From positions 6,291-70,290 of the IMG/VR virus record IMGVR_UViG_3300024299_000011: a stretch of DNA of 64,000 bases; one strand, given 5' to 3'. Position 1 is the first letter of the stretch, and each line of letters begins with the position of its first letter. The translations under genes were made by a program, and so were the position numbers. Source of the stretch: a virus. Below the pieces are notes generated by a model. It had not been told where the DNA came from, did no database searches, and worked only from the letters and a program-made list of their open reading frames with translations. Positions 10,683-61,650 of this stretch are shown here, piece after piece.

Positions 10683-11067
10683 ACTTATTATTGGTATTTT
10701 ATTCTTATTACCTCAATTTATTTTTGCTCAATGTCCTGAAGATATTCAATCAATTAAAAAAGGACAAGTTGCTAATTGTGAAGGTCTTCTATTTTCACCA
10801 GAAGCAAGTAAGAATGTAGCAAACACACAAGATGATGCTAAGCACTATAAAGAATTATCTGATCTACTGTATAAGCGCCAAGAACTAACTACAAAAGACA
10901 TAACTATCCTGGATAAAAGATTACATCTATATATGGAGCAAAGTAATACTTTAGCAACACAGCTATATAAAAAAGAGCAAGACGGTAAGTGGCAGAAGTT
11001 TATATATTTTGGTTTAGGCGTATTAGCAACAGGATTTGCATTCTACGGGGTGTCTCATCTCAAATAA
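10669..11067 (+). CDS. Exported protein with C-terminal TM helix (spanin-like)
   Basis: Signal peptide, two Cys, coiled coil, C-terminal FIYFGLGVLATGFAFYGV. Confidence 0.45.
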   Translation: MKSVKLIIGILFLLPQFIFAQCPEDIQSIKKGQVANCEGLLFSPEASKNVANTQDDAKHYKELSDLLYKRQELTTKDITILDKRLHLYMEQSNTLATQLYKKEQDGKWQKFIYFGLGVLATGFAFYGVSHLK

Positions 11068-11428
11068 CGACGACATTGAAAGATTAATGGAGATTGCTAC
11101 ATCTAGCACAGCCCCAATTAAACACGACGATCCTGAGGTTCTCCAGTTCATAGAAGAGTTGGGGATTACCAGTGGAACAGCTAAAGTTCCAACATATACG
11201 TTATATTACACTTATGTGTTATGGAGAGATAAGCGAAAGAAGTTAAGTAGATTATTATTTTTTAGAGAAACCGCTAAACATTTTGAGAGAGTCCAAGGAA
11301 AAGGGACTAACAATTACCTCCTAAACGCAGAGCCCTTTGATCTAACACCTGAAGGTTTTTTTGCAGCTAGAGCACAACTGAGACGAGAGCGATATGCAAA
11401 AGAAAAAAGGAAAAACAAAAAGAAGTAA
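11057..11428 (+). CDS. Hypothetical protein, probable ATC start
   Basis: GGGGT-5nt-ATC at 11057, in frame with ORF 11036..11428. Confidence 0.55.
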   Translation: MSNNDDIERLMEIATSSTAPIKHDDPEVLQFIEELGITSGTAKVPTYTLYYTYVLWRDKRKKLSRLLFFRETAKHFERVQGKGTNNYLLNAEPFDLTPEGFFAARAQLRRERYAKEKRKNKKK

Positions 11429-18194: not shown

Positions 18195-18602
18195 TTAAAT
18201 AGTTAATATTGTTAGATCATATCTAGTTTCGGCCTGTAAGCCCCCGATATTAGTAATAGTCACTAAACTCGCATTCTGACTCCAAGAAATTACAGGTACT
18301 TGGGTCGGAAATGAGGTGTTATCTGACGTAATAACAGATCTAACAGTCAATATTCCTTGTATTTTATTTACTATACCAGACTTAAAACTGACAGTATTTA
18401 AAGGCTGACCAGTAGCTCCTGTAGTAAACGACAAAGTCTTAACTTCCTGAGCTAGGTTATCAAAGTCTACGTTTTTAGCTAATACACTTCTGACTTGCTC
18501 ATGAAATGAGTTAATAATGAATGCAAGCTTTCCTATGAGTTTCTGATCATCTTTATCAAAATCCTCAACGGTTACTCTTTTTAAATCAGGCGTCTTACCG
18601 AT
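18195..18602 (-). CDS. Virion-associated protein, 135 aa, probable ATC start
   Basis: Frame open 56 codons upstream of the listed TTG to GGAGGT-5nt-ATC GGT AAG ACG, filling the gap after the nozzle gene. Confidence 0.7.
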   Translation of the reverse strand: MGKTPDLKRVTVEDFDKDDQKLIGKLAFIINSFHEQVRSVLAKNVDFDNLAQEVKTLSFTTGATGQPLNTVSFKSGIVNKIQGILTVRSVITSDNTSFPTQVPVISWSQNASLVTITNIGGLQAETRYDLTILTI

Positions 18603-18614
18603 AGCAGACCTCCA

Positions 18615-21600
18615 TTATGTCCAGGCCTTTTCAGATATAGGTCTAAATGTGTATGTTATTCCGTATAATGCAAACTTCTCTCTAGCACTGTTGAATATAA
18701 ACTCAGCTTTAATGAATCTACATCTTTGTTTTTGTCTAGGGATATATGTTCTTAATGGAACCCCACTAAAACCTCCGCCCCAATTATGTTCTCCCCAAAT
18801 AAATAAACCCCAGTCACCCTTACCTGATTTAGTAAAATCTATAGTTTGAAATCCTGGACTTAAGTCTGATGCATATCCAACAGTAGCTCTAGAAAAGTTA
18901 TTATTTTCAAATATAAAAGTACCCTCTCTAACGTGCTTAGATATAGACGGATCTCCTAATGGATCAGCAGAGTAAACTACATCACAATTAATACCTTTAT
19001 ATAAAGTAATAGGACCTTCTATAAATTGAGTTGAGTACTGCATAACAACATCTGTTACGTTATTTTCTTTACCTACAATTAAAACCTCTTCTTCACTAGA
19101 TCCAGTAGATCCGTCGTAGTTTTGGTAAAATACACCAGCATCTAAATTTAACTTATTAATTACAGTATTAAAGGCTGCTTGGGTTTCTTCAAATGTAGAG
19201 ACGTTAGCTGCCCAGTCACAAGTACCACCAACCGTAGTAGTAATATCTATTGAAAAGTTATTTGCATCCACTTTTGTTACAATATAATTACCGTCAATAA
19301 CTGGAGTAGATGTACTATTACTTATTGTTATAAATCTGCCAGTTTCTAATAAATGACCAACTTCAGTTATTACTGTAGGAGTTCCTAACGTCACTGTAGA
19401 CCCAACTGCGCTACCAGGAGTTATAGATGTTAAATAATCAGTATCTGATACACCAGGATCTAAGTCTAATGATTGAGCTAAAGAGTTCAACTGCTGTGTT
19501 AAATTAACTCCTGGAGTTGCTTGTAAGTTTCCTAAGAAATCGCCAAACCCTTGACTAGTAACTGTTATTACAAAACCATTACCTATACCATTTAATACCC
19601 CATCAAAAGCGTCTGTAGTATCTCCATTACGAGTTGTTACAGTTTCAACCAACGGTCCAGTATTAGATGTAATAAATTCTAAAGAGGTGGTACTTAGTGT
19701 ATTTTTTGTAAATAAAGCAACGTCAGAAGTTGTTACTGCAGTGGTTACGTCCACTCTAACTTGAACAGCATCAGCTATATCATTAAATATTAAAGTATCT
19801 AGCTCAGTTAACGTTCCAATAGCATCATAAAATACAGCATATTTAGTGTTATCTGCTGCAGAGTATAATATATAATACTTACTATGTAAATCTAAGATAG
19901 ATCCGGTATACGAAGTAAAATCATAACTAGTTTGTTCTGGAGCACCTGTGCCAGGATCTAAATCTAATCTAGACAATAATTGATTAAACTCGGATATAGT
20001 TAAATATTGAGTCTGAACTACAGCGTCACCAACATCTACGTTTGAAGACGAGGATAACTTTAAGGTTGTGTCTGCAATAGAATCTGTAGGGATTGATAAA
20101 GCGAAGTCTCTATCCGCATAATCAGTACGATCAAACAGCTTACGTTCTTGCTCTATAAAATTCTCATCATCAGGACCTAAGTATAGTTTATCATTTGATT
20201 GATTAACTATCCCACAAGTTTTAGCTATGGTAAATATAGTGAAACTATTTGTCACAGTACTATACCTTAAGCACTGTGTTGCAACAGTATCTGTCTCGGA
20301 ACTTGGAAGCCATAAAAGATATGACCTATCTGTTTCATAAGACACTCCGAAGGAATTAAACTTAAAATCATATCCTGAACTACTAACTAGCTTAACGATA
20401 TCATCAATATCCTTAGATATAATATTAACACCAGTATCTGATATAATTGCTATACCTTGGTTAGTTAGACAATATATTTGGTTATTTAAAACCACAGCAG
20501 TATCTGGGGCAATTATCTTAGTAGATTCATCAAATAAATCCACAGCATAAACACCGTTAGATCCAGTCAATCTATATATACCATCATCTTTTAATATGAA
20601 TAAACTCTCTCTTAATGCTAATATTCTTTGTATCTCTTTATCTTCAGGACCAATGTCTATGAAATTTAATAAAGGAACAGCTTCTGGTTGTTGTAACTTA
20701 GCATAATAAACTCTATTAGGTTTAGTTTCTGTCTCTCCAGAAAAAGTCTGAGCACCAACGGAAGGTGGTAATGCTGGATTAAACACATCTCCTGTAGCGG
20801 CATTATTAGCTGTAATCGTAAATTGATTAATTCCAATATCTCTACTCTCAAAAAGTATAAGACCAGGAAGATCACTTGCTCCTGATATATAAAATGCATA
20901 TACAGTTCCGCTTGAATTTCTATTAATTATATTAACTAAAGATCTAGCAGTCTCATCTATCTGTTGAGATGGGCTTGCAGCGGCTGAGAGTAATACTTTA
21001 TTAGTAGAAGAATCTTCTCCAATACCTTGCTGAGTTACTGTTACAGTAAAGCTATTAGCTATACCAGCTATAGCACTATCTACAGCATCAGTGGTGTCTC
21101 CGTTATTAGTTGTAGTTAAAGTAACTAATGTACTTGCTGCAGTATATGCTACATCAAAGTCTGCAGCGGTATCTTGGTCTAATATTGCAGCGGCAGTAGC
21201 ATCGGCAACTTGAGCTACAGTAGTAACCCCCCTACTAACATTAACCTTAAATCCAGTTCTTCCTACAACATCTGTATGAGTAACAATGTCGTTAGCTGGA
21301 TCGCTATTTACTGGAGTAATTGCTGTGTAAGAAAATCCCTTTTGAAGGTCCTCAAGTGATATTAATCTAGATGAATCAATAGACTCTGAATCAACAGTTA
21401 TTATCGTAGCTGGTGCTGTATGAGTAACATCAAAATCGCTATTAATATCATTCAATACTATAGCCTGTGCAGTTAAATCTGCTAATTCTTCTATCAATGT
21501 TGTATTTGGTGCATTTATAGATATAGTGCTTACATCAACTCTAATACCTATCATCCCTAATAAAGGAGTTCCAGACAATGTACCAGGATCTATTGTACCA

Positions 21601-22934: not shown

Positions 22935-22943
22935 TAGTTTCCT

Positions 22944-24618: not shown

Positions 24619-24815
24619 TACGATTTCTTTTTAAGAAGTTCTTTAGCTTTATCTAACCCTTTAGTAAGACCTTTTTTATCCTTAGCTGCTACAGTTACTT
24701 TTTGTAACTCACTAAAATCATCACCCATCATCTGAGATGCGATACCGTGAAGCTCTTGTAAAGCTGCCATTTTACCTTTAGATTTGTTGCTGTGGTCTTT
24801 CTTTTCTTTTTTCAT
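24618..24815 (-). CDS. Small basic protein
   Basis: GGAGG SD; KVTVAAKDKKGL.KGLDKA. Confidence 0.6.
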   Translation of the reverse strand: MKKEKKDHSNKSKGKMAALQELHGIASQMMGDDFSELQKVTVAAKDKKGLTKGLDKAKELLKKKS

Positions 24816-24828
24816 ATACTTTCCTCCG

Positions 24829-25281
24829 TTATATGAATTTAATTAATGTTGATATTAATAATCCCATCCCTAATACAATATTCAAGATAGATTGTTTGGC
24901 TACTTGAGAGTTCAGGATATGTTGTGTTGCTTTTATGTGAATCATTGCTTCTTTATTATCTTTTTGATTTAAAGAGCATAAATGTTCTATTACTTTAACC
25001 TCAGCTACTAAAGCTTCGATCTCACTGCTATCATTTTTATAAATAGTAACTTCTTTTACTATAGTCTCTTTGTGTTGTAATTCATTAATAGAATGTTCAT
25101 TCTTTTTTAGTTTAGATTTAATAACATCTATTTCTCTTTTTAGTGGAGATAAATCTACGCTAGACTCTTTTATAATTTCAACAACCTCTTTTAATGGAGC
25201 AGATACCCCTTTTGAGGGTGATATAACCCCTTTTAAGGGTACTTCTAACTGTATTCCTTCACCAAATGTCATCTTAGCCAT
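24829..25281 (-). CDS. Hypothetical protein with C-terminal TM
   Basis: ORF in late operon. Confidence 0.55.
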   Translation of the reverse strand: MAKMTFGEGIQLEVPLKGVISPSKGVSAPLKEVVEIIKESSVDLSPLKREIDVIKSKLKKNEHSINELQHKETIVKEVTIYKNDSSEIEALVAEVKVIEHLCSLNQKDNKEAMIHIKATQHILNSQVAKQSILNIVLGMGLLISTLIKFI

Positions 25282-25694
25282 TACGATCTCCCAACTAAAT
25301 GAACGTCTCCAACAACATCAATAGACATAACACGAACTCTACGAGCAACAACAATACTACCTGGATTCTCACCAGAGAAATTAACCCAATGATCTCCTGA
25401 ATCTGATAAACTAACCTGAACGTTTATTGTCCCCGAACCGTCAATTCTGGCAGCAATTAATCTCATAGAAGAACAATCTAAAGGTGGTATAATCTCTGTA
25501 CCATTATCTGAAACTTCGACACCTATAACGCTTGCGCTTAACTTAGCTGGATGAGATGTAACACTATCTCCGTCTAAATGATCAAGTTCCATGTTTATCT
25601 GTGTATCAGTAATTTTAACTTTCTTAGCTTTAGATACAGGATCATGTTCGTCTCTAGCTATTCTTATTGGGTCTTTTTTAATATCTTCAGCCAT
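25281..25694 (-). CDS. Putative virion protein
   Basis: Beta-rich ORF in late operon. Confidence 0.55.
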   Translation of the reverse strand: MAEDIKKDPIRIARDEHDPVSKAKKVKITDTQINMELDHLDGDSVTSHPAKLSASVIGVEVSDNGTEIIPPLDCSSMRLIAARIDGSGTINVQVSLSDSGDHWVNFSGENPGSIVVARRVRVMSIDVVGDVHLVGRS

Positions 25695-25704
25695 TGTATA
25701 TCCT

Positions 25705-28014: not shown

Positions 28015-28016
28015 TA

Positions 28017-28295
28017 TTAACTCCTAACAACGTCTATTAGTCTATTTGATGCGTCGTAAGAAAGTGTCAAAGTTGCCACGCTTACTGCATTTAATTTAAA
28101 AACTACAGTTTCTATCTCACCAACTCCATCTCCGGCGGCTACGTAAGTTAATTGTATTTGTTCATATTCATCAGGAACCAAGCTATTCATAACTATAGTT
28201 CCAGTACTAATCCCACCACCAGATAGATCTACCGATGATTTTCTTATTACTTGATTAGCATCTAATGTGCTTAGTCCGTTAGCATCTTTAGCCAT
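28017..28295 (-). CDS. Putative virion protein
   Basis: Beta-rich ORF between fibre genes. Confidence 0.55.
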   Translation of the reverse strand: MAKDANGLSTLDANQVIRKSSVDLSGGGISTGTIVMNSLVPDEYEQIQLTYVAAGDGVGEIETVVFKLNAVSVATLTLSYDASNRLIDVVRS

Positions 28296-28341
28296 TATCT
28301 CTTCCTCTCAGCAATGAAATAGTCAATTAGGCTTTTGTCCA

Positions 28342-31300
28342 TTACTTTACCCGCCTGGCTGATATTTTGTATGCTACTTCTAGATTTGTGGTTGATGTAT
28401 TCGCCGCTGCCTTTAGATACCAATTTTCAGTGCTTGTAACAATTATCCCGTTCCTAGATAGTGTCAATGTATCTCTATTGGTACTTGAACCCCTCTTTGT
28501 GGTTACTAAATATTCAATGCCCTCAGTCCCAGGGGATGTTGTTCCCGATACGTTATTTATACCCAGTTGAACTAAGCTTGTTGTTGTTGCTCCATTTGAA
28601 TAATAGACTGCATGTGCTTGTATATCCCATTCACCTGGTGATAGAGATATTGTTGCAAGATCCCCGTATGTGCTTGCTGTAATGGGAAAAGAAATAAACC
28701 CCGAACTTGCCTCAACCAATTCAGTTTCACCATAAACACCGAATACTGAGAAGTCTGGGAGCTCTTCAATTGTAACGTATGTGAATTTGTCATCACCCGT
28801 ATATAGTACCTGATTAGCTCCTGAGTTCTGGTTAATTCTTATGTCAATATAGTCACCTTTAACTAACTTAATAGTATCGCTACCACTTATTTGCATAAAT
28901 GTAGACGTTGCACCAAACTGCGTCTCTCTGTCTAGGTTAGAATAAACTGCGCCATTTTTAAATAATATAAAAGTCGCCGACTCTGATTCAGTCCAAGCTG
29001 TACTACCCGCAAACAGCAAGGCAGATTTAACGCTATAGTATCCTGTTTTTGGTGCTGTAAATTTCCAACTTGCGCCAGTTGTAACCAAGCCTTGGTCGTC
29101 ATATTCTTGACCATCAAAATCTATAATTGTAGTACTACCTGTAGAGATAACTTGTCCTGAGTCTGTTTTATATCTAGCTTTTGCTGTACTAAACAAAGCC
29201 TCAGTCGTTGAAACTAGGTTAGATGCTTTCAGACCTTCAATTGGAACCGAAACCGTGAATGAAATATCTGAACCATTTCCAATGGAATTTCCGTTAACAG
29301 GAGTTAACCCGGAGCTAGCGGTGTCACCGCGGCCCATGTTTAGAAAAGAATCGCCACTTGTCCCTAGAACATTTAAATCAATAGAAGTAGCATAACTTGT
29401 ACCCATGCTACCTAGCATTTTTACAGAAGATGCTATAGACGAATCAATAGCTTTACCGTTAGGTAGTCCTATTTGAGCTTCGACACCCGTGTTTGTTCCT
29501 GAATTAAAATCAATTGAAAGCTCATAATTACTACCAACCCTTCTCCACCAACAATCGACACTTGAAATGCTACCGAAGCCTTGAGTCGTTGGCGTATAAG
29601 CTTCCCACTCTGTAATTATAGCACCAGGAGCAAATTGTTCTGGACCAACTTTTACATTATCTAAAATCATTCCATGAGCACTTGTATTTGTTGTAGCTAT
29701 ATGAAATATTAATCTATAATTTTTAGAACTAGTAGTATAAAACTCTCCTTGAAATTTTGTATGAGTACTACTATCGGCTGTAGCAATAACATCACCATCG
29801 TTGTCGTTACTAACTCTCCCAATGAGTGTTGTGTTATCGATATCATAAACAAACACAGCAATGTCTCCTGAAACAAACCCAGGATTTACTGTAGAATATT
29901 CAAAAGATACATTTAACTTCTTACCGTTATCATCTGCGTTATCTATTGTAAAATCAGTTGAAAAACCTTGGCCTTGTTTACTAGCACCATCTTTAATTAA
30001 CTGTAAACTGCCTACTCCTCTAACTATAATACTAGCGTTAACAGTTCTACCTAAAGATATACCAGAAGCAGTCCCACCAGTCCCATCTACGGGGGTTGCC
30101 GAAGCTCCGTCGTTGTAAAGACTCCAGCCAGAAGTGTCATTTTCTATATCAGGATTAGATATATAGTTTATCCCACCCTGACCACCACCACCACCAAGAT
30201 CTATTAGCGACGTTCCATCATCACCTTTATAAGTATTGGTAGTATCATCAAAATACACAGCACCTTTTTTTCTAGCCAATAAACCTAAGTTTGTTGAAGT
30301 ATCGCTACTGACAACAGCTCTATTAGTCGCAGAAGCAGCTCCCGTTAAGTCAATATTAGATGTTGTTATTGTTTTATTAGTAACAGTCTGTGCATGGTCT
30401 TCTAACACTACGTCATCAGCAACAGTTGCATCAGGAATTGTAATTACACTTTGGTTGCCTGTGGCTCTAGTTATACTATCAGCACTTGCTCCAGTAATTG
30501 TATTAGTGCTAGACGCTAGATTCTTATTTGTAACAGTTTGAGTGCTACTTACATCCACAACTTCAACTTCAGATCCTAAAGCACCTAATTTAAACTTAGA
30601 AGCTAAAGCGTCTTCATAAATTATAGAACCATCTGTACCAGTTCTCTCTACAGTTAATCCTGCACCCTCAGAAGATCCATCAGTACCTGTTTTATTTACT
30701 GTTATATTTGTATCCGTAACATCAAGAGTTGCCGTGTTAAGCGTTGTAGTAGTCCCATTAACCGTCAGATCTCCAGGAATTGTAACGTTGTTTGTGTCAT
30801 CAATTAGAACACCAGATCGTTCTACAGCATCACCAGCAGCATTAGATTTCATTACTGAGTTATCTACGCCTGCACCATAATCATCTATCTTAGCGTCTAG
30901 TTGAGTTTGCACATCACCAGTTAATCCGTTTAATCTAGACAGCTCAGTGTTATCTACATCTCCGTTACCGATCTTAGTAGCATCAATTGCCGCAGCAGCT
31001 TTTATATCAGCATCAACAATATTAGTTATTGTGTTATTATCAGAGTCAATAGATTTATTAGTAATTGTCTGTGTATCCGTATCTCCTACAAATTCCCCAC
31101 CTGGAGCATCTTTAGCGTCCACTGTAACACCGAGACCATCTCTACTCAATACCTTATTGGCCTTAGCTAACTCAGTTTTTAAAGAAGTTAAAGCTAAATC
31201 CTGAATAGTATTAGTATCTCCGTCAATTGTTTTATTTGTAAGAGTGTCTGTAGTTGCTTTTCCGATTAAAGTGTCATCAGCATCAGGAAGATCTATACTT

Positions 31301-31440
31301 CGATCTACAGTCTGTTTTGCTTTTAATGTAGTACGAGTTCCGGTAGTAGAGGCCACATCAGCTTCGATAGCCACCTCTTTGGTTCTATCCGTATCGTTTT
31401 GTATCAAAAGACCTTTGATTATTGATAGTAAGTTAAGCAT
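28342..31440 (-). CDS. Tail fibre/spike protein with carbohydrate-binding-like and C1q-like domains
   Basis: TLTNK repeats, GGGGGQGG linker, NYISNPDIE..GW, KFTAPKTGYY..LVKGDYIDI. Confidence 0.75.
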   Translation of the reverse strand: MLNLLSIIKGLLIQNDTDRTKEVAIEADVASTTGTRTTLKAKQTVDRSIDLPDADDTLIGKATTDTLTNKTIDGDTNTIQDLALTSLKTELAKANKVLSRDGLGVTVDAKDAPGGEFVGDTDTQTITNKSIDSDNNTITNIVDADIKAAAAIDATKIGNGDVDNTELSRLNGLTGDVQTQLDAKIDDYGAGVDNSVMKSNAAGDAVERSGVLIDDTNNVTIPGDLTVNGTTTTLNTATLDVTDTNITVNKTGTDGSSEGAGLTVERTGTDGSIIYEDALASKFKLGALGSEVEVVDVSSTQTVTNKNLASSTNTITGASADSITRATGNQSVITIPDATVADDVVLEDHAQTVTNKTITTSNIDLTGAASATNRAVVSSDTSTNLGLLARKKGAVYFDDTTNTYKGDDGTSLIDLGGGGGQGGINYISNPDIENDTSGWSLYNDGASATPVDGTGGTASGISLGRTVNASIIVRGVGSLQLIKDGASKQGQGFSTDFTIDNADDNGKKLNVSFEYSTVNPGFVSGDIAVFVYDIDNTTLIGRVSNDNDGDVIATADSSTHTKFQGEFYTTSSKNYRLIFHIATTNTSAHGMILDNVKVGPEQFAPGAIITEWEAYTPTTQGFGSISSVDCWWRRVGSNYELSIDFNSGTNTGVEAQIGLPNGKAIDSSIASSVKMLGSMGTSYATSIDLNVLGTSGDSFLNMGRGDTASSGLTPVNGNSIGNGSDISFTVSVPIEGLKASNLVSTTEALFSTAKARYKTDSGQVISTGSTTIIDFDGQEYDDQGLVTTGASWKFTAPKTGYYSVKSALLFAGSTAWTESESATFILFKNGAVYSNLDRETQFGATSTFMQISGSDTIKLVKGDYIDIRINQNSGANQVLYTGDDKFTYVTIEELPDFSVFGVYGETELVEASSGFISFPITASTYGDLATISLSPGEWDIQAHAVYYSNGATTTSLVQLGINNVSGTTSPGTEGIEYLVTTKRGSSTNRDTLTLSRNGIIVTSTENWYLKAAANTSTTNLEVAYKISARRVK

Positions 31441-31454
31441 TAATTATCTCCCTC

Positions 31455-31931
31455 TTATTGAGCTAAGCTTTTAGCTCTAAAATGTATTACACCAGAATAA
31501 TTTAAAGAATTTATATCATTTGATTTATATTGAACTTGTCCACCTGAAGTAAGATCAAAATCTACTCCAGAGTTACCAACAACATTACCGATAGCTATAG
31601 ACCACCCAACGTTATTATCATAAATAAGGTGCATTTCACCAGTCTCAGCAAAACCAGACGGGTTTGCAGTAGAAATTCTATAAACTGAATATTGAACAAC
31701 AGCAGATCTTACTGCTGCGTTATTGAAAACTAGGCCTATTATATCAGCAAGTGTTGCTTGATTATTCACAATATTGAACGAAGATTCTAATATATCATTA
31801 GGCCCAACAACGTCATTTAATACGCTAGTAACCTCTTCTGCCCATTTAGTTGCATCTGAGCCCCAGCCTGGTTCATCACCTTTAGTTGGATACGAAAACG
31901 GTTTGTTATTGACGATCAATGTTTTAGGCAA
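31455..31931 (-). CDS. Virion protein sharing a domain with the 769-aa fibre C-terminus
   Basis: SF...NNQ.TLA...G..F.N..VRSA..QYSV...E.G...GQ.QY.S...SG....RA present in both. Confidence 0.65.
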   Translation of the reverse strand: MPKTLIVNNKPFSYPTKGDEPGWGSDATKWAEEVTSVLNDVVGPNDILESSFNIVNNQATLADIIGLVFNNAAVRSAVVQYSVYRISTANPSGFAETGEMHLIYDNNVGWSIAIGNVVGNSGVDFDLTSGGQVQYKSNDINSLNYSGVIHFRAKSLAQ

Positions 31932-31960
31932 GATATACCCCTAGATTGTGAGTTAAGGCT

Positions 31961-31978
31961 TCACTTTATATTTGTTAA
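31961..31978 (-). promoter_or_regulatory. Late-promoter motif TTAACAAATATAAAGTGA (copy 2)
   Basis: Exact 18-mer repeat. Confidence 0.8.
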
Positions 31979-31986
31979 ATTTACTC

Positions 31987-32014
31987 TTGACACGGTCTAA
32001 ATCTGTGATATAAT
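31987..32014 (+). promoter_or_regulatory. Sigma70 promoter giving a probably leaderless transcript
   Basis: TTGACA, 16 bp, TG-n-TATAAT; ATG 6 nt downstream. Confidence 0.7.
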
Positions 32015-32020
32015 GCCTAT

Positions 32021-32218
32021 ATGGAACTTATTTTTATATTAATGGTAATTTTAATAATAGCTATATTCAGATCAACGTCTAATAGTGAGAGTAATAAACA
32101 CTGTTACACGCTGAAAAAGAATCATAATTGGGTCAGAAGTGGAGAAGAACCGGATACTTACCTGGTTTGTTCTATATGTAAGATGTTACCTGGCGGAGAA
32201 TCAGAGGAAGGGAATTAA
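32021..32218 (+). CDS. Small membrane protein with Cys/His motif
   Basis: N-terminal TM; C..H.W....C..C. Confidence 0.6.
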   Translation: MELIFILMVILIIAIFRSTSNSESNKHCYTLKKNHNWVRSGEEPDTYLVCSICKMLPGGESEEGN

Positions 32219-32617
32219 ATGTATAAATTTAGCAGGAAATCAAAGGCTAAGCTAGAAACATGTCACCCAGATCTACAGAGAGTGTTCAATGAGGCTATTA
32301 AGCACGTAGATTTTACTATACTAGAAGGTATACGGTCCTTAGAGCGTCAACAGGAGTTAGTTCGTTCTGGGGCTAGTAAGACGCTCAATTCTATGCATAT
32401 AGAGAAACCTGATGGAACCTCGCATGCTGTAGACGCAATTGCTTATCCGATTCAGTGGGATAATTACAATAGAAATTATTTATTTGCTGGATTTATTAAA
32501 GGAATTGCCGCAGGAATGGGGATTAAGCTTAGGTTAGGAAGCGATTGGAATGGTGATTTCGATACTACAGATCAATCATTCCATGATTTGCCCCACTTCG
32601 AATTGGAGAAGAAATGA
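32219..32617 (+). CDS. M15-family (L-Ala-D-Glu peptidase-type) endolysin
   Basis: S...L...HPDL, EGIRS.ERQ, SMH......AVD, G.DW, DLPHFEL. Confidence 0.9.
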   Translation: MYKFSRKSKAKLETCHPDLQRVFNEAIKHVDFTILEGIRSLERQQELVRSGASKTLNSMHIEKPDGTSHAVDAIAYPIQWDNYNRNYLFAGFIKGIAAGMGIKLRLGSDWNGDFDTTDQSFHDLPHFELEKK

Positions 32618-33000
32618 AATACCACGATCCATTACATATACCCAGTGCTGAGAGAGTTGTTTGGCATAAGGGAGTAGAGGCTTTAATATTAAATAAAGAG
32701 CTACTAGATCAACAGAATTGCTGGACTAATTTAGATAAAATCAAAGAGTTACATTCAGAAAGATTGCATTTATGTGATATGATGATGGAAAGTGACGATA
32801 TAGACTTCCTGACATTATGTGACGCTTATTATACTTTAATTGAATTTGAATTACAAGAAGCTTGGGGATTTCCTTTAGATAAGAAATTTCATATGTTTTG
32901 GAGAAGAGTAAAATGCGAATGCGCTAAGCTAGATAACCAGGATGCATATCCTTTTGGGTATTATTCAATTAGCGGAGGATGTCCTTTACATGGCTCTTAA
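32614..33000 (+). CDS. Hypothetical Cys/His-containing phage protein
   Basis: LQEAWGF..D..FH..W...CEC..LDN...CPLHG. Confidence 0.65.
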   Translation: MKYHDPLHIPSAERVVWHKGVEALILNKELLDQQNCWTNLDKIKELHSERLHLCDMMMESDDIDFLTLCDAYYTLIEFELQEAWGFPLDKKFHMFWRRVKCECAKLDNQDAYPFGYYSISGGCPLHGS

Positions 33001-33319
33001 GATCCTAGCTTTTATATATAGACATACAGGATATTATAGTCCTTTAATTAAAGTGTATCAGTATGATGCGGTCATAGAATATATTAAAGAATGTAACTAC
33101 GATATAAGCGAACTTGGTATTCACTTATTTATAGGATGTTGGCAGACAAATCATGGATTATATAAAACTCATAGGAGGTTTAAATGAATGTATCATTTAA
33201 AGAGATTGAAGATTGTATACATAAAGAACCTTGGGCCTATATTTGCTACTGCCACCACGCACAAGGTCCATTAACAAAAGAAGAAGTTGTGTATATGTAT
33301 TATAAATATAAGGAGAACT

Positions 33320-33571
33320 ATGATTCAAGATAATTGGGATAAGTACAACGATGTACAAAAGAAAATAACATCGCTAGCTGATTCTCTTGGAGTTACAGAA
33401 GTTCACTTAAGAAAAAATGCTAAGAATTTTGACCTGATTATTAGACTACAGGTACAGCACCTCTTGATAGATAAACTAACTATACTTGAAACAATACATA
33501 ATAAAAAAATAAATAAAATATGTTCAAGTGAGGTGGTTTCTTTAGAGGAATATAAATGCAATATAATATAG
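33320..33571 (+). CDS. Hypothetical protein
   Basis: AGGAG SD before ATG MIQDN. Confidence 0.55.
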   Translation: MIQDNWDKYNDVQKKITSLADSLGVTEVHLRKNAKNFDLIIRLQVQHLLIDKLTILETIHNKKINKICSSEVVSLEEYKCNII

Positions 33572-33594
33572 ATTACAAGGTATAGGAGATTTAA

Positions 33595-34041
33595 ATGATA
33601 ACAATGAAGATTGAGATACCAGTTGGATCTAATGTTAAGTATGAGATAGATAAAGTTACTGGAGAGTTGAGGGTTGACCGACTGTCAAAACTGACATATC
33701 CTGCAACATATGGGTACATAAAAGATACGTTAGCTGAAGATGGGGACCAATTAGATGTGTTCTTATTAGGAAGTGACGTGTATATTCCAGGATCTATAAT
33801 AGATGTTGATATATTAGGGATGCTTGAAATGTCAGACAATGGGATTGTTGATAATAAAGTAATAGCTAAGGTTCATTGTGATAATTTAGGAGTAGCTCAA
33901 GATTACTTAGATAGGCATGTTAGGGTTATAAAGACTTTCTTGAGGAACTATAAAGAGAATACTATTGTAGGTAACTATGTAGATAAATCTGATACTGTTG
34001 AGTATTATGAAAAATGTAAGGAAGTTTATGAAAAGAAGTGA
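33595..34041 (+). CDS. ppa: Family I inorganic pyrophosphatase
   Basis: IEIP.GS.VKYE.D, DR, YP..YGYI..TL.EDGDQLDV, M.D.G..D.KVI, F..YK. Confidence 0.9.
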   Translation: MITMKIEIPVGSNVKYEIDKVTGELRVDRLSKLTYPATYGYIKDTLAEDGDQLDVFLLGSDVYIPGSIIDVDILGMLEMSDNGIVDNKVIAKVHCDNLGVAQDYLDRHVRVIKTFLRNYKENTIVGNYVDKSDTVEYYEKCKEVYEKK

Positions 34042-35142
34042 TGCGTTGGAAATTATAGATACAGTATTATATGAACACGAGTTACCTCTACTACAAGGTA
34101 TAGATAAAGAAATATTAGGTAGATTAGAACGAGCTGGGATGTTACCTCCTGCGGTTGATCCTAAGGTTTTTGGTTTAAAGCCAGAGCATGTGTGGGAACC
34201 TGAAGATGACTGAGTATAGATTAATTACAAATGGATTCAGGTATAGTATTCAATATTTAGGTAAGAAGTATATTTTCTTTAGAGAACCTAAGTGGTTAAA
34301 TTATACATACTATCCCTATTATATGGGTCTTAATGAGCGGTTTTACGGGACTAAGTTGGAATGCGAAGATCATATAAAGAAATTACTAGATTATGAGTCA
34401 GAAAGAAATGCAAAGTGGAGTGTTGTGTGAAAATAGTTGAGTGTTATTTTGAAGATTGTGGCGAGCCTGTTGTGGGGACTAAAACTAATAGTAAAGGCGC
34501 AAAGTTCTATGTTTGTGATTATCATTACCAGATGCTATTAAATGTATTTACTCCGGATGATGTACAAGAAAAGACTTTCGAGAGAGTAGATGAAGAAACT
34601 GTTTAGTGTTTATATAATTGTTATACTACAGGCGTATTTGGCAGGTTACTGCTATTTAGAAAAAGAGTATACAGCTGCAGGAGTGTTGGTTTTATGTACT
34701 GTGGCGACGTTTCTGGTGGCTAAAATGATAAGAGGAGCAATGAAATGATTGATTGGTTCTATGGAAAAGCGGAACCAGAGCATCAGATGTGGTTTGGTAT
34801 AAATGGATTTAGGTATGAGTCATCTCGGTGGAGTCCATCAAGAGAAGAGAAAGTTAAAGAGCGTGGTTGGTATTTATACTTGTTTGTTGCAGGATATCAA
34901 TTGGTGTTATTTAGAGAGGTAGAAGTATGAGGTTTTGGATCAAGATTGCTTTAATAGTACATGCGTTGGGGTTTTAATATAAAAAGGGGATGTAGATGAT
35001 TTTAGAAAAAGTAATAGCATTTATTAAATATATAGTATTTTTGTTTGTATTAGTGTTTTTTTGTGCTGGAATTGACTGTGTTTTTAATAATACAAAAAAG
35101 ATAGATCATTGTAATAAAGTAAAGTATATAGATGAAAAGTGA
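34028..35142 (+). other. Run of small hypothetical ORFs (e.g. 34028-34213, 34206-34430, 34427-34606, 34745-34930)
   Basis: Overlapping start/stop codons and SD motifs; no recognisable domains. Confidence 0.55.
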
Positions 35143-35153
35143 ACAACTACAAC

Positions 35154-36485
35154 TTAAGTTAAGATTAATGAATATATATTATTAGTACTTTCCATTATTT
35201 TTATAAATCCATTTTTTTTGAGCATAGCTGGGCCACTCTTTGATCCATCGTAATCACTTCCCAATATTCCCGGAAGTTTGTGCTTCATTAACTTTTGTCT
35301 ACTATACTTAACTCCATCTTTAATGTAATGATAACTTCTCTCAGTTTCTCCAATATAACTAAACCCCAAAGCTAAATACACCTTCCCTCCATTCTTATAA
35401 CTAGACACAGCATAGGACAGTATACTATCTGGATTATATTCTTTTATAAAGGCCTTTAGTAACTTACTGGCCCCACCAACAACAACAATACTCCCTTTAT
35501 AACATAACCTATACAACTCCCATTTAAACTCAACTCTCCTACCCCTAGGAACACCGAAGCTCATTAAACAAACCAACTCCTCTTCATAATACAATCCATA
35601 ACAAACCGTTGTAGGTATACTTTTTTGTCTATGATATTTATCTAAGAATGATTTATGTTCAGACCATCCGACCTTACGTACCTTGCATTTTCTGGCATAT
35701 ATTTTAGATATAGAGTCAGCATAGCACCAGGAATATCCTTTATACTTCTTATTGTTTAATATAGATCTTCTTATACCGGTTTTATCAAAACCACCTACAC
35801 TGGCGTCTACACCTGACTTAAAATACAACTTATCTCCATTATCATTTACGCCAATAAATGGTCTGGCGGTAGTTTTTCTATCTCTATAAGATTGCTTAAA
35901 CTCTGATTTTGTTAAGGTTTTTATTGGATTCTTCTCCCTATACTGCCTAGTTTGGCTTATCTGACAACTCTTACAGATCCTCATTAACTTATCCCAAGTT
36001 TTATTATAAACATTAAATCCACTTAAAGGGAAAACTAAATTACACTTAGTGCATTTTTTACAAGAAATATCGTTAACTTCAATATGGTGATTTCTATTAT
36101 ACGCTATAATGGGTTCTTTTAAATTCTTGTAATACTCCTTTCTTGACTCTGATATCTTTAATTTAGTTTCTTCAGTATAAACAACTCTACTGTCTATAAT
36201 ATTTACCGTATTATATCCTTTAGGTGCTATACTATTGTTTTCCTTTATGTAGTATTCTTCCCTGGCAGCTATATTATCAAAAGGTATATTATCTTCAAGG
36301 ACCGTCGTAGTGAATTCGTTCCAAGAATACTTCTTTAACGCTCTGTAGAATACTGTACAACTCTTGTATGAATTATAGGTCTTATCTGACTTTCTCCACC
36401 TTCTAGCTGTAGTTTGAATAGTTGAGCCTATATAGACTTTACCGTTAATCTTGTTTTCGTGTTTATATATTATCCCAGTTTTCAT
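35154..36485 (-). CDS. GIY-YIG homing endonuclease with zinc finger and extra C-terminal domain
   Basis: GIIY...KVYIGST, REEYYI, GYN, CTKC..CKSC; C-terminal FL..YH.Q...WELYRLC...VVGGASKL. Confidence 0.82.
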   Translation of the reverse strand: MKTGIIYKHENKINGKVYIGSTIQTTARRWRKSDKTYNSYKSCTVFYRALKKYSWNEFTTTVLEDNIPFDNIAAREEYYIKENNSIAPKGYNTVNIIDSRVVYTEETKLKISESRKEYYKNLKEPIIAYNRNHHIEVNDISCKKCTKCNLVFPLSGFNVYNKTWDKLMRICKSCQISQTRQYREKNPIKTLTKSEFKQSYRDRKTTARPFIGVNDNGDKLYFKSGVDASVGGFDKTGIRRSILNNKKYKGYSWCYADSISKIYARKCKVRKVGWSEHKSFLDKYHRQKSIPTTVCYGLYYEEELVCLMSFGVPRGRRVEFKWELYRLCYKGSIVVVGGASKLLKAFIKEYNPDSILSYAVSSYKNGGKVYLALGFSYIGETERSYHYIKDGVKYSRQKLMKHKLPGILGSDYDGSKSGPAMLKKNGFIKIMESTNNIYSLILT

Positions 36486-36491
36486 ATTACC

Positions 36492-36520
36492 AGTATACTA
36501 TACATGAGGTTGTATGTCAA
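36492..36520 (-). promoter_or_regulatory. Sigma70 promoter for the endonuclease (leaderless)
   Basis: TTGACA, 17 bp, TATACT, 6 nt, ATG. Confidence 0.7.
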
Positions 36521-36552
36521 GTAAAAGGTGGTATACAATTCATGGTGAGACA

Positions 36553-36584
36553 TAAAAAAAAGGACCCCATTGCAGAGTCCTTTA
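36553..36584 (-). terminator. Intrinsic terminator after the major capsid gene
   Basis: AAAGGACTC-TGCAAT-GGGGTCCTTTTTTTT on the - strand. Confidence 0.8.
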
Positions 36585-36618
36585 TATAATATCTTAACTG
36601 AGTAGTTAAGTATTTAAA

Positions 36619-37839
36619 TTAATTAACTATTCCTTTTACAAGACAATTCTTGCCAGGAGCGTAGCACAAAAGCGCTTGATCGCTGTATGCTCTTAATTCA
36701 TATCCTGCAGCATTTTCTAACTCACGGAAGAAAGTGTCACCTTGATCAGGACGGTTGAATGTGATATCACTAGAACCAATTCTTAACATTTCTTCTTCAC
36801 AAAGAACATAAGAAAATCCTTCTTTAACATAAATGCTAGGAACGATTTCTACTTTACCATTTTGGCCGTAGAAAGTGATTTCTTGATGTCCAGCTTCTGA
36901 AACAGAAACACTGTAAGAACTATCATACTGACGTAGAGCAGTTTGCTCAGTTAAAAGGTCAGACCAAGTTCTAGGGTTAACGAAAACACATACGTTGCTA
37001 TCAAGACCTTTTTCAACTGCACGAGCAATTGCATCTTGAACCTTAGCGAAAGAAAGAGGATTTCCAGCTAAATCGATTTCGTTACCTTTCCAAAGGTTAT
37101 ATTGAGAAGCATCTATGCCGAATAAAACTCCAGTATTAGTTAGTATCTTATGGATACCAGCAGCTTCTTTACCTTTAGCACCTTTATAATAGATGATGTC
37201 AGTGGCAACAGTACCAGCAGGCATCGCATCTACAGTGATTTCACGAGTATCCATGTCAATTCCTGAAATCTGAGCAGTACCACGTAAAGTAGTAGAAGTA
37301 GCATCATAGATGTCAATCTTCATAGCTTCAGAACCAGCGAATATTCCAGGTGCCCAATCAGCAGTAGTAACAACTAAAACGTTACCTACAGGAAGTGCAT
37401 CTACAGATCCTATGCCAACACCACCATAAAACAAACCAACTTCAAGTCTTTTAGACATTGAACGAAGCATGTTTCTTACTAGGAACTTAGTAGCGTTTTC
37501 AAATGCTTTTGGCTCTCCACCAGCAGCTCTTGAAGCAGCAGCGATACCAAGACGAGATCTAAGCATCATTTGTGAACCTTGAACAGAAGCGTCACGGATT
37601 ACACCGTTAACAGCGTCATCTAATGCGAAAGCATCGTCAGTTGGTCCAGCATAAGTAATACCGTGCTCTAGGCCTAATATTACAGGTTGGTGATATAAGC
37701 TACCTAAAGCTTTCTTTCTTCCAGAAAATGGAACTTTCTGCATGAACTTTGTTCCTTCTGGGATTAAATTTTCTAATTTATCTGCGTATATTTCTTTAAA
37801 TAAACCATTTAGTGTGGTTATGGTATTTTCTCCAGCGAT
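36619..37839 (-). CDS. Major capsid protein, 406 aa, probable ATC start
   Basis: Follows the scaffold, has its own late motif and terminator; frame extends 32 codons past the listed ATG to AAGGAGC-5nt-ATC GCT GGA GAA. Confidence 0.82.
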   Translation of the reverse strand: MAGENTITTLNGLFKEIYADKLENLIPEGTKFMQKVPFSGRKKALGSLYHQPVILGLEHGITYAGPTDDAFALDDAVNGVIRDASVQGSQMMLRSRLGIAAASRAAGGEPKAFENATKFLVRNMLRSMSKRLEVGLFYGGVGIGSVDALPVGNVLVVTTADWAPGIFAGSEAMKIDIYDATSTTLRGTAQISGIDMDTREITVDAMPAGTVATDIIYYKGAKGKEAAGIHKILTNTGVLFGIDASQYNLWKGNEIDLAGNPLSFAKVQDAIARAVEKGLDSNVCVFVNPRTWSDLLTEQTALRQYDSSYSVSVSEAGHQEITFYGQNGKVEIVPSIYVKEGFSYVLCEEEMLRIGSSDITFNRPDQGDTFFRELENAAGYELRAYSDQALLCYAPGKNCLVKGIVN

Positions 37840-38005
37840 AATGTGCTCCTTGGTTATTATACGTTATTTACATATAATTGTTGATATTTATTGTTTATTA
37901 TTTAATGATATGTGCCAAATAATTAATCAATATTACGGGTTTACCAAGAAGCTCCAAACGGCGTACTTCCGATTCCAACAAAATATAACATAATATATTG
38001 CTCTA

Positions 38006-38023
38006 TCACTTTATATTTGTTAA
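38006..38023 (-). promoter_or_regulatory. Late-promoter motif (copy 3)
   Basis: Exact 18-mer upstream of the capsid gene. Confidence 0.8.
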
Positions 38024-38070
38024 CTTATACACCATATTGGGCACATTATTTGCACCCAATACAATATTAC

Positions 38071-39063
38071 CTAGAAATTACTCCAAAAATCCTTAGCCTT
38101 TTTAGCTGGAGTTGGCTCTTTGTCAGCTAAAGCTTTCTTATCTTCGGACTGACCTGTAGGTTTAATGTTAGTTGCCTCAGCGGTTGTCTTCTTAGCTCTC
38201 TTGATCCTGCGCTTACGAAGCTTAGTTGAAACATCATTTCCCAGGACCTTTTCTATGATATCCTCAGGCATAGCTTCAAACATCTGACGAATCTCGTCTT
38301 TAATTTGCTTCTCAACTATGGGTAATACATCAGTAACTGTAATGTCCTCATTACCTTGATCTAACCCAATCATTAGGTTTTCAGCAATCCTCTTAACCAC
38401 ATATGGGCTTTTAGGTAGATCTGAACTAGCTAAAGAATCTGTAATCTCAACATCTAACTGCCTAGAATACTCTTCTTGGGCTCTAGATTGCTCTAAACTA
38501 ACCTTTTCATTCTGAAGCTCTTCTCTTGCTTTTCTCTCAACTTCGATCTCTTTTTGTAGCTTTTCAAGCTCTAATTGCTCAGGAGACTTCTTCATATCCT
38601 CAACACGCTTTTCTAAGTATGACTCAGCAAGCTTATCCATATCATGCCCAGCTGCCTTTAAAGCTTGAATTGGGTCTGATTGCATCAAATCAGCAAAACT
38701 CTTCATTTGCTTTTCCATGCCCGAAGCCTTTTGAAATCGCTCATCTGCAGCAAATCCCTTTTGTAAAAGTTCACGAATTGAGCTTTCATCACCTAAATCG
38801 ATCTCTTTTTCAACGTCTTTACCGTTAATCTTAAAGGTCATTCTCTTTTTTAGTTCTTGGATTGCTTCTACTTTTTCCTCTTCAGACGCATCTTCATCTT
38901 CGAGTACTTCGGTTAATTCTTCTTCAGTAGCATCTTCAGCGTCTATTTCTCCGCTATCCTCACCTTCTACTTCTTCAGATTCAATAACTTCATCATGTGA
39001 CGCGTCTATTGTACCTATTACTTCCTCAGCTGATGCTTCGGGGCTATCTTCTTGTATTGACAT
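38071..39063 (-). CDS. Capsid scaffolding protein
   Basis: Highly acidic N-terminus, FKING...E, coiled coils; immediately upstream of the capsid gene. Confidence 0.75.
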   Translation of the reverse strand: MSIQEDSPEASAEEVIGTIDASHDEVIESEEVEGEDSGEIDAEDATEEELTEVLEDEDASEEEKVEAIQELKKRMTFKINGKDVEKEIDLGDESSIRELLQKGFAADERFQKASGMEKQMKSFADLMQSDPIQALKAAGHDMDKLAESYLEKRVEDMKKSPEQLELEKLQKEIEVERKAREELQNEKVSLEQSRAQEEYSRQLDVEITDSLASSDLPKSPYVVKRIAENLMIGLDQGNEDITVTDVLPIVEKQIKDEIRQMFEAMPEDIIEKVLGNDVSTKLRKRRIKRAKKTTAEATNIKPTGQSEDKKALADKEPTPAKKAKDFWSNF

Positions 39064-53588: not shown

Positions 53589-53589
53589 T

Positions 53590-61471: not shown

Positions 61472-61581
61472 TATAACTCCTTATTAAAAAGCAATACAGA
61501 CAATTCATCCTAGGGGCTGTACGCAACCTCTGCCTTGTTGTTTTACATCCTGAGCTAGAAAACTGGATATGTACTACGTAT

Positions 61582-61645: not shown

Positions 61646-61650
61646 GGTTA

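What the first reader, a model, noticed from the sequence alone, without database searches (positions are those of the whole stretch)
36619..37850. Major capsid gene and at least two other genes appear to start at ATC
Seen: the capsid frame is open 32 codons above the listed ATG and meets AAGGAGC-acatt-ATC (37839), giving (M)AGENTITTLNGLFKEIYADKLENLIP. The 18195 gene likewise runs up to GGAGGT-ctgct-ATC (18602), and 11057 has GGGGT-gtctc-ATC. All three have the 5-nt SD spacing seen at canonical starts here (GGGGT-acaat-ATG at 62834, GGGGT-atatc-TTG at 31931). Known: AUC initiation is very weak in E. coli and is discriminated against by IF3. Inference: using it on the most abundant virion protein implies relaxed start-codon selection in this host or during infection.
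Basis: partly seen in the sequence, partly recalled or inferred. Interest (0 to 1): 0.8.

Follow-up and report, generated by a model that had tools for sequence, protein, structure and literature searches.

The report
Phage capsid gene starting at ATC
In one wild marine phage lineage the major capsid gene and a tail-region gene begin with ATC exactly where all relatives have a normal start codon, and the lineage has persisted in seawater for years, so this very weak start codon evidently works well enough in nature.

Summary
The window is an uncultured marine phage contig (35% GC). Two of the three ATC claims hold. In the major capsid gene (36619-37839, minus) and a 135-aa tail-module gene (18195-18602, minus), ATC sits on the codon where relatives have ATG or GTG. 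It lies behind a conserved 6-nt Shine-Dalgarno at 5-6 nt, and the "extensions" are conserved protein.

The third claim is wrong in detail. Homologs' Met1 maps to ACG 11045, not ATC 11057, and a TTG at 11036 could serve.

ATC is not an assembly error. Independent assemblies (DNA 2018-19, RNA 2025) carry it at both sites, one being a variant strain whose 5 capsid differences are all synonymous. The truncated gene calls it causes occur on 14 and 18 contigs.

No other capsid locus with DNA uses a non-canonical start: 81 of 83 and 60 of 80 loci have ATG at the usual N-terminal position, and the rest are interrupted, diverged or short. Two related genomes show no such loss, and ATG dominates this genome.

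Best reading: lineage-specific ATG-to-ATC changes, tolerated as genuine AUC initiation. Relaxed start selection in the host is possible but not shown.

The parts
36619..37839 (-). Major capsid protein gene, 406 codons plus stop, read from the ATC
   Evidence: PHROG major head protein phrog_14242, residues 5-394. Arthrobacter phage major capsid proteins match from residue 6. HK97-fold hits for the model. 108 of the 120 best homologs are full length; those printed begin MAGENT....
37837..37839 (-). ATC at the position of the relatives' ATG; proposed initiation codon
   Evidence: L014, L004, L015, L002, L017 and L134 all have ATG at this codon. No other letter here in the contigs of 4 runs.
37846..37851 (-). 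Shine-Dalgarno AAGGAG, 6 nt upstream of the ATC
   Evidence: Of 6 close relatives, 4 have AAGGAG at 6 nt (L014, L015, L017, L134). L002 has TAGGAG at 7 nt and L004 has AAGGA.
37744..37836 (-). Codons 2-32, the N-terminal part lost if translation began at ATG 37743
   Evidence: Invariant L10, F14, Y18, L25, P27 and K31 in 35 sequences down to 59% identity. Synonymous versus nonsynonymous codon differences to relatives range from 7/2 to 15/7.
18195..18602 (-). 135-aa gene of the tail/structural module, read from the ATC
   Evidence: 49 homologs, nearly all 135 aa. Their first residue aligns on the ATC codon. No Pfam or PHROG family.
18600..18602 (-). ATC at the position of the relatives' ATG (L006) or GTG (L007)
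   Evidence: No other letter in the contigs of 4 runs.
18608..18613 (-). Shine-Dalgarno GGAGGT, 5 nt upstream of the ATC
18615..18617 (-). TAA stop of the upstream 1439-aa gene, in the same frame as the ATC gene and four codons above it
   Evidence: In L006 and L007 the upstream stop is in another frame.
11036..11428 (+). Third gene. The ancestral ATG is replaced by ACG at 11045-11047. Candidate starts are TTG 11036, ACG 11045 and ATC 11057. ATG 11087 lies inside conserved sequence.

Best explanation
In this phage lineage, single-base changes turned the ancestral ATG (or GTG) of two late structural genes into ATC. Both genes are still translated from that codon.

Proposed mechanism: the 30S subunit is placed by an unchanged 6-nt Shine-Dalgarno 5-6 nt upstream. 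Initiator tRNA then pairs with AUC as a near-cognate, with a mismatch at the third base. The full-length protein is made with Met at its N-terminus, at lower efficiency per mRNA than with AUG.

Shown here:
- the ATC is real;
- it lies on the relatives' start codon;
- the SD is conserved;
- the N-terminal parts are conserved coding sequence;
- the lineage is viable and widespread.

Inferred, not shown: that initiation happens at AUC, that Met is inserted, and how efficient it is.

A third gene lost its ATG to ACG, but it has a nearby TTG.
For: (1) Start alignment. Capsid: 6 of 6 close relatives with DNA have ATG on our ATC. Of the 120 best homologs, 108 are full-length calls, and those printed begin MAGENT.... 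Tail gene: L006 has ATG and L007 has GTG on our ATC. In 21 aligned homologs the start column holds M, V or L.

(2) No canonical codon lies between the upstream stop and ATG 37743 or TTG 18434. Starting there would delete 32 or 56 conserved residues.

(3) Purifying selection on capsid codons 2-33: synonymous/nonsynonymous 7/2, 11/3, 12/2, 13/2, 11/5 and 15/7 against six relatives.

(4) Not an artefact. Logan contigs of X10 and X11 (DNA, 2018-19), X14 (RNA library, 2025) and X3 (possibly the source) cover both sites with no other letter. The X11 contig differs at 10 places over 34907-38023. Its 5 differences inside the capsid gene are all synonymous, and it keeps ATC.

(5) The truncated gene calls that the ATC causes recur in other assemblies. 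The exact 374-aa capsid call is on 14 contigs. The 79-aa tail call is on 6 + 12 contigs.

(6) Whole-genome screens flag only these genes.

(7) Precedent. AUC initiates with N-terminal Met at 1-2% (0.02-3%) of AUG in E. coli reporters (passages of 10.1101/063800). Natural AUU/AUA starts behind extended SDs give about 10%, and up to 30%, of AUG in S. aureus (passages of PMC13009471).
Against: - No protein or ribosome data exist; initiation at AUC is inferred.
- In E. coli AUC is 50-100 times weaker than AUG, which is hard to square with the most abundant virion protein.
- Other AUH codons are in frame nearby: ATT 37842 directly upstream, and ATA 37821 at codon 7 behind GGAG at 8 nt.
- The ATC is not conserved. 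Every other capsid locus with a contiguous N-terminus has ATG (81 of 83; 60 of 80, the other 20 being interrupted or diverged).
- Contigs cannot show minority ATG variants. Raw reads were not seen.
Confidence: 0.72

Rival explanations
1. The host, or the infected cell, reads AUC and other near-cognates efficiently because start-codon discrimination by IF3 is relaxed. Loss of ATG is then nearly neutral.
For: - Three ancestral starts were lost in this one lineage: two to ATC and one to ACG.
- One of them is the capsid gene.
- The lineage is assembled more often (14 contigs) than its closest ATG-bearing sisters (6 + 2).
- It spans 2018-2025.
- P0133, a 66%-identical tail-gene homolog, has Ile at the start column.
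Against: - ATG is the start in 86 of 103 crude calls, with GTG 8 and TTG 9.
- Two relatives, G001 and G002, show no loss among the roughly 50 genes I could align.
- No capsid locus with a contiguous N-terminus (81 of 83, 60 of 80) uses a non-canonical start.
- The phage has no tRNA gene, and no translation factor was seen among the 20 proteins scanned in Pfam.
- The host is unknown.
Confidence: 0.18
2. Translation starts at another codon: ATT 37842 or ATA 37821 for the capsid, or the downstream canonical codons (ATG 37743, TTG 18434). The products would be slightly different or truncated but functional.
For: - ATT lies directly 5' of the ATC, and ATA at codon 7 has GGAG 8 nt upstream.
- ATG 37743 has AAGGA 9 nt upstream.
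- Two relatives make do without the first ~14 residues (L061, L155).
Against: - ATT is only 3 nt from the SD.
- The tail gene has no such neighbour (GCT precedes its ATC).
- Residues 15-32 are kept in every contiguous homolog and hold invariant positions.
- Starting at TTG 18434 removes 56 of 135 residues, including the most conserved block FIINSFHEQVR.
Confidence: 0.08
3. A defective or declining genotype. The start mutations are deleterious, and the lineage survives by complementation from co-infecting ATG-bearing relatives, or was only sampled transiently.
For: A 95%-identical sister with ATG exists in the same collections (P0002 and P0172). AUC is weak in E. coli.
Against: - It is present in runs dated 2018, 2019 and 2025 and on 14 or more contigs.
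- Two ATC-bearing strains differ by 5 of 5 synonymous capsid changes, which points to continued selection on the gene.
- The capsid RNA-library contig has depth 372.8, against 1.45-41 elsewhere (a hint only).
Confidence: 0.04
4. A sequencing or assembly artefact: the true letters are ATG.
For: The window is a metagenome assembly.
Against: - Four separately assembled runs agree at both sites, including a variant strain and an RNA library.
- Gene callers truncated both genes on many contigs from JGI, Logan and ENA.
- Two errors landing on two start codons is very unlikely.
Confidence: 0.01
5. For the 18195 gene only: it is made by read-through of the in-frame TAA of the 1439-aa gene, or by re-initiation after the 6-codon TAATG-coupled ORF, rather than by independent AUC initiation.
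For: TAA 18617-18615 is in frame, four codons above the ATC. ATG 18615 overlaps that stop and opens MEVCYR*, which ends 5 nt past the ATC.
Against: In L006 and L007 the upstream stop is in a different frame and the gene has its own ATG or GTG. The in-frame arrangement is therefore not conserved. That TAA followed by T is a strong terminator in E. coli is recalled, not taken from a call.
Confidence: 0.04

Closest known systems
AUU start of E. coli infC (IF3) and pcnB
   Same: A near-cognate AUH codon behind an SD is used as the natural start, read by initiator tRNA and discriminated against by IF3 (introduction of 10.1101/063800; passages of PMC3488254).
   Different: Those codons are conserved and serve to keep expression low or autoregulated. 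Here the codon is AUC, it is lineage-specific, and it sits on a gene that needs very high output.
S. aureus cvfC1 (AUU), ccpN (AUA) and infC (AUA) starts found by retapamulin profiling
   Same: Non-canonical AUH starts rely on strong or extended SD pairing at the right spacing. They reach about 10-30% of AUG in vivo (passages of PMC13009471).
   Different: These are regulators of low abundance, conserved across species and shown experimentally. No AUC case is reported there: 'AUC' occurs 0 times in that text.
Synthetic AUC-start reporters in E. coli (Hecht et al.)
   Same: AUC supports initiation with N-terminal Met.
   Different: Those are engineered constructs at 0.02-3% of AUG. Here it is a natural, persistent allele of essential virion genes.
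Intron-split capsid genes in the same family
   Same: They also give truncated capsid gene calls in relatives. Group I introns lie just upstream of the second exon in L144 and L163.
   Different: The window has no Rfam match, and its N-terminal coding part is contiguous with the rest of the gene.

Membership tests
Natural near-cognate (non-AUG/GUG/UUG) bacterial initiation codon | No canonical start keeps the conserved N-terminus | tested here: met
   Capsid and 18195 gene. Not met for the 11036 gene, where a TTG is available.
Natural near-cognate (non-AUG/GUG/UUG) bacterial initiation codon | Orthologs' start codon aligns on the non-canonical codon | tested here: met
   For the third gene the aligned codon is ACG 11045, not ATC 11057.
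Natural near-cognate (non-AUG/GUG/UUG) bacterial initiation codon | Shine-Dalgarno at functional spacing | tested here: met
   AAGGAG + 6 nt and GGAGGT + 5 nt. The SD is conserved in relatives.
Natural near-cognate (non-AUG/GUG/UUG) bacterial initiation codon | Initiation shown by N-terminal peptide or initiating-ribosome footprint | not testable with these tools
   No proteomic or Ribo-seq data were available.
Conserved regulatory weak start (infC type) | The non-canonical codon is conserved across orthologs | tested here: not met
   ATG in 81 of 83 and 60 of 80 capsid loci, and no non-canonical start in the rest. Tail-gene homologs have M, V or L.
HK97-fold major capsid protein | Sequence and fold match to phage major capsid proteins | tested here: met
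   phrog_14242, E = 4e-21. Annotated Arthrobacter phage capsids. Model with pTM 0.73 (mean pLDDT only 69.3) matches phage capsids and encapsulins at probability 1.00.
Group I intron-interrupted capsid gene | Intron RNA between exons | tested here: not met
   No Rfam family reached its gathering score anywhere in the window.
Programmed read-through or frameshift fusion (18195 gene) | The frame relation to the upstream gene is conserved in relatives | tested here: not met
   The upstream stop is in other frames in L006 and L007.

The most novel reading that the evidence does not exclude
The unknown marine host, or the cell once infected by this phage, initiates efficiently at AUC and perhaps ACG. 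Losing ATG on the capsid gene, a tail gene and a third gene then costs little. This abundant lineage would be a natural read-out of relaxed start-codon fidelity in an uncultured bacterium, or of a phage-induced change in it.
Probability: 0.18. Interest if true: 0.8.

Novelty: new member of a known kind. Interest (0 to 1): 0.55.

Why it matters
Gene callers accept only ATG, GTG and TTG. They therefore truncated this capsid to 374 aa on 14 contigs and the tail protein to 79 aa on 18 contigs. Databases carry these wrong N-termini.

Biologically, AUC is among the weakest start codons measured in E. coli. Yet here it heads the gene for the most abundant virion protein of a phage that has persisted in seawater across runs dated 2018 to 2025.

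There are two possibilities. Capsid output may tolerate a large drop in initiation rate, perhaps offset by high mRNA levels and a strong SD. Or initiation fidelity may differ in the host.

Either outcome can be tested with simple reporter fusions and with metaproteomes of the same waters.

Tried and rejected
- DNA search of the capsid region against GenBank phages found nothing. Protein mode found only distant capsids.
- Portal and RNA-ligase proteins gave no cultured relative, so the host stays unknown.
- The scan of prokaryote genomes gave only 5 MAG contigs with mixed labels, which is no evidence of host.
- I tried to obtain DNA for the truncated capsid homologs. Seven of them (P0044, P0046, P0053, P0054, P0058, P0067, P0073) are called from the same internal Met as ours. 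Their contigs are not in IMG/VR, and the one metagenome scan returned mostly more distant loci.
- Those seven may therefore have non-canonical starts or introns; I cannot tell. One relative (L100) has a stop directly before residue 34, and introns are proven in L144 and L163.
- Pfam and PHROGs give no family for the tail gene or the third gene.
- RNA folding of the two initiation regions showed nothing special. Capsid: z = -2.15, from a hairpin upstream of the SD. Tail gene: z = +1.24.
- The phage has no tRNA gene, so a phage initiator tRNA reading AUC is excluded.
- The scaffold gene looked extended in the first screen, but it has a plain AAGGAG-ATG start.
- Literature. Searches for 'AUC start codon' + bacteriophage gave 2 papers. 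'AUC initiation codon' gave 3 papers. A six-term search on translation start sites gave 3 papers. The listings and the passages I read showed no natural AUC-initiated phage or bacterial gene.
- Searches (7 papers; 94 papers, 20 listed) showed none in their listings either. From I opened only PMC6070908, where 'ATC' as a whole word occurs 0 times.
- One search was badly framed (min_terms 1) and useless.
- This is not proof of absence. Subscription journals and supplements were not searched, and supplements were closed.

Full report
WHAT THE WINDOW IS

The window is bases 6291-70290 of a 70,290-base IMG/VR virus record. It is 35% G+C and tightly packed with about 100 genes. All three stop codons are in use. 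ATG is the start in 86 of 103 crude gene calls, with GTG 8 and TTG 9.

The same DNA is held by many seawater and marine metagenome runs. No cultured phage is close, so the host is unknown.

THE CAPSID GENE

On the minus strand the sequence reads ...ACC AAGGAG cacatt ATC GCT GGA GAA AAT... The ATC is at 37839-37837, and the frame is open back to the TAA at 37866-37864. The first ATG/GTG/TTG in frame is ATG 37743, 32 codons further down.

The protein read from the ATC is a major capsid protein:
- It matches PHROG major head protein phrog_14242 over residues 5-394.
- Annotated Arthrobacter phage capsid proteins match from residue 6.
- An AlphaFold model (pTM 0.73, mean pLDDT 69.3) matches HK97-fold capsids and encapsulins.

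Of the 120 best database homologs, 108 are full-length calls. Those printed begin MAGENT[VI]..TLNGLFKE. Our frame reads (ATC)AGENTITTLNGLFKE, so the homologs' Met1 falls exactly on the ATC.

At the DNA level, six close relatives (73-93% identical) were compared:
- All six have ATG at that codon.
- L014, L015, L017 and L134 have AAGGAG 6 nt upstream.
- L002 has TAGGAG at 7 nt, and L004 has AAGGA.
- So only the third base of the start codon differs in our lineage.

Codons 2-33 differ from these relatives mostly by synonymous changes: 7/2, 11/3, 12/2, 13/2, 11/5 and 15/7 synonymous/nonsynonymous. This stretch also holds invariant residues L10, F14, Y18, L25, P27 and K31 in an alignment reaching down to 59% identity. 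The extension is therefore real coding sequence.

THE 18195 GENE

The sequence reads GGAGGT (18613-18608), ctgct, ATC (18602-18600). The first canonical codon is TTG 18434, 56 codons below.

The two related contigs have ATG (L006) and GTG (L007) on exactly this codon, followed by the same P-D-L-K-R motif. A database search gave 49 homologs, nearly all of 135 residues. In 21 of them that I aligned, the start column holds M, V or L.

One homolog, P0133, has Ile at that column within a call extended to an upstream ATG. This may be a second lineage with an ATH start, but I could not see its DNA.

The gene has no Pfam or PHROG family. It lies in the tail/structural block, just below a 1439-aa gene.

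THE THIRD CLAIM (11057)

The string GGGGT-gtctc-ATC is present, but the proposed test fails. All five homologs from other lineages (P0175-P0179) and the related contig G001 start with Met at the codon that is ACG here, at 11045-11047. The ATC four codons later is an internal Ile in the two closest homologs, P0175 and P0176.

The T-to-C change that destroyed the ATG is synonymous (TAT to TAC) in the overlapping end of the upstream gene. A TTG at 11036, also present in G001, is a canonical alternative. ATG 11087 lies inside conserved sequence, although gene callers chose it on 15 contigs.

So this gene also lost its ancestral start, but its present start is unresolved.

IS THE ATC REAL?

Logan contigs of four runs were laid on 18400-38100. 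At both ATC sites none shows another letter.
- X3 covers the whole stretch but may be the source of the window.
- X10 and X11 are DNA runs dated 2018 and 2019.
- X14 is a metatranscriptomic RNA library dated 2025.

The X11 contig over 34907-38023 differs from the window at 10 places and still has ATC. Its five differences inside the capsid gene are all synonymous. That indicates continued selection on the gene after the ATC arose.

The RNA-library contig over the capsid has depth 372.8, against 1.45-41 for the other bins. This is only a hint of strong capsid transcription, because contig depth is a poor measure and DNA can be present in RNA libraries. The RNA consensus shows no editing of the C.

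The exact 374-aa capsid call that an ATC forces on gene callers is on 14 contigs from JGI, Logan and ENA. The 79-aa tail call is on 6 + 12 contigs. The closest ATG-bearing sister capsids are on 6 and 2 contigs.

Caveat: contigs hide minority variants, and raw reads were not seen.

HOW UNUSUAL IS IT?

SD-plus-ATC strings are common by chance, with 30 in the window, so the motif alone means nothing.

Two whole-genome screens were run against the related contigs G001 and G002:
- The first looked for homology reaching above the first canonical codon. Among real genes it flagged only the capsid and the 18195 gene.
- The second was read by eye on the N-terminal alignments of 52 ORFs, a few of them too poorly aligned to judge. 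It added the ACG case and found no loss in G001 or G002.

Across capsid loci with DNA:
- 81 of 83 have ATG 8-20 codons before the TLNGLFK motif. One has a short N-terminus with ATG, and one is interrupted.
- 60 of 80 IMG/VR loci have ATG. The other 20 have a non-contiguous or diverged N-terminus.
- None has a non-canonical start. Some loci occur in both sets.

Twelve of the 120 best protein homologs are shorter calls, seven of them from the same internal Met as ours. I could not get their DNA. Group I introns do interrupt this gene family (L144 and L163), so these calls cannot be counted as further non-canonical starts.

MECHANISM

The simplest reading is ordinary SD-guided initiation with initiator tRNA on a near-cognate AUC.

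In E. coli reporters, AUC gives N-terminal Met at 1-2% of AUG, and 0.02-3% in other constructs (passages of the preprint 10.1101/063800). AUU and AUC are the codons IF3 discriminates against (passages of PMC3488254).

In S. aureus, natural AUU and AUA starts behind extended SDs reach about 10%, and up to 30%, of AUG (passages of PMC13009471). Both ATC sites here have 6-nt SD cores at 5-6 nt.

Several alternatives were examined:
- The phage carries no tRNA gene.
- There is no intron or other Rfam element in the window.
- The initiation regions have no notable RNA structure.
- ATT 37842 is only 3 nt from the SD. ATA 37821 has a weaker SD, and neither has a counterpart at the tail gene.
- Read-through of the in-frame TAA above the tail gene is unlikely, because relatives have that stop in other frames.

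Relaxed start-codon selection in the host or during infection is not excluded. Three ancestral starts were lost in one lineage, one of them on the capsid gene, and the lineage is frequently assembled.

The evidence leans the other way, however. This genome overwhelmingly uses ATG, its relatives keep canonical starts, and the ATC is not conserved. I put this reading at about 0.18.

COMPARISON AND NOVELTY

Near-cognate AUH starts are a known kind: infC and pcnB AUU in E. coli, and infC, cvfC1 and ccpN in S. aureus. Those are conserved and hold expression down.

This case differs in three ways. The codon is AUC, it arose recently within a lineage, and it sits on essential, highly expressed virion genes.

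My literature searches and the passages I read showed no natural AUC-initiated phage or bacterial gene. That is not proof of absence, because subscription journals and supplements were not searched.

I file it as a new member of a known kind. It is of moderate interest, with a practical point: the database N-termini of these proteins are wrong.

Noticed in passing
L144 101-338, L163 88-338; also L055, L100, L142, L146-L148, L152, L156-L158: The capsid gene family is a hot spot for interruptions. Group I introns (Rfam RF00028, 81-84 bits) sit just upstream of the exon beginning ...YNQPV in L144 and L163. Many other relatives have a stop or no start right before residues about 15, 34 or 49-61. 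L146 and L147 carry about 500 extra bases inside the match.
   Followed up: partly
window 35154-36485 (-): A 443-aa ORF directly downstream of the capsid gene combines a GIY-YIG nuclease domain (residues 4-92) with a weak, below-cutoff Mom-family match (residues 268-403). It has no counterpart in G001 or G002, so it looks like a free-standing mobile endonuclease inserted in this lineage.
   Followed up: partly
window 4471-6273 (+) and 140-1411 (+): ThyX carries an intein with an HNH endonuclease. A ribonucleotide reductase fragment carries a LAGLIDADG domain. Selfish elements are frequent in this genome.
   Followed up: no
window 52315-56210 (+): An RNA repair set: a kinase (AAA_33, with a weak tRNA-ligase-kinase match), an Rnl2-type RNA ligase, and a phosphoesterase fused to an Rnl1-type RNA ligase. 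Recalled, not tested: such sets are known as a counter-measure to tRNA-cleaving host defences.
   Followed up: no
window 18595-18617 (-): The stop of the 1439-aa gene overlaps an ATG (TAATG). This opens a 6-codon ORF (MEVCYR*) that spans the SD and the ATC of the next gene and ends 5 nt past the ATC. In relative L006 the same TAATG is the real start of the tail gene, and about 13 bases appear inserted here.
   Followed up: partly
window 37856-37878 (-): A 9-bp hairpin just upstream of the capsid SD contains a minimal ATG-TAA 'start-stop' (37873-37868). The fold z-score of the 81-nt region is -2.15. Its meaning is unknown.
   Followed up: partly
L004/L145 (G002 capsid) and G002 7321-7351: The related contig G002 has its capsid gene in two frames (a 1165-base match for 406 residues) and a run of 31 N. 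It is either a lower-quality assembly or a broken gene.
   Followed up: no
P0133 (homolog of the 18195 gene): It has Ile at the start column, within a call extended 11 residues to an upstream ATG. This may be a second lineage with an ATH start codon on this gene. No DNA was available.
   Followed up: no
window 61477-61785 (+): A frame open for 103 codons has its first canonical start (GTG 61636) only at codon 54, in a strand-switch region. No SD-preceded near-cognate codon was seen, so it is probably non-coding.
   Followed up: no
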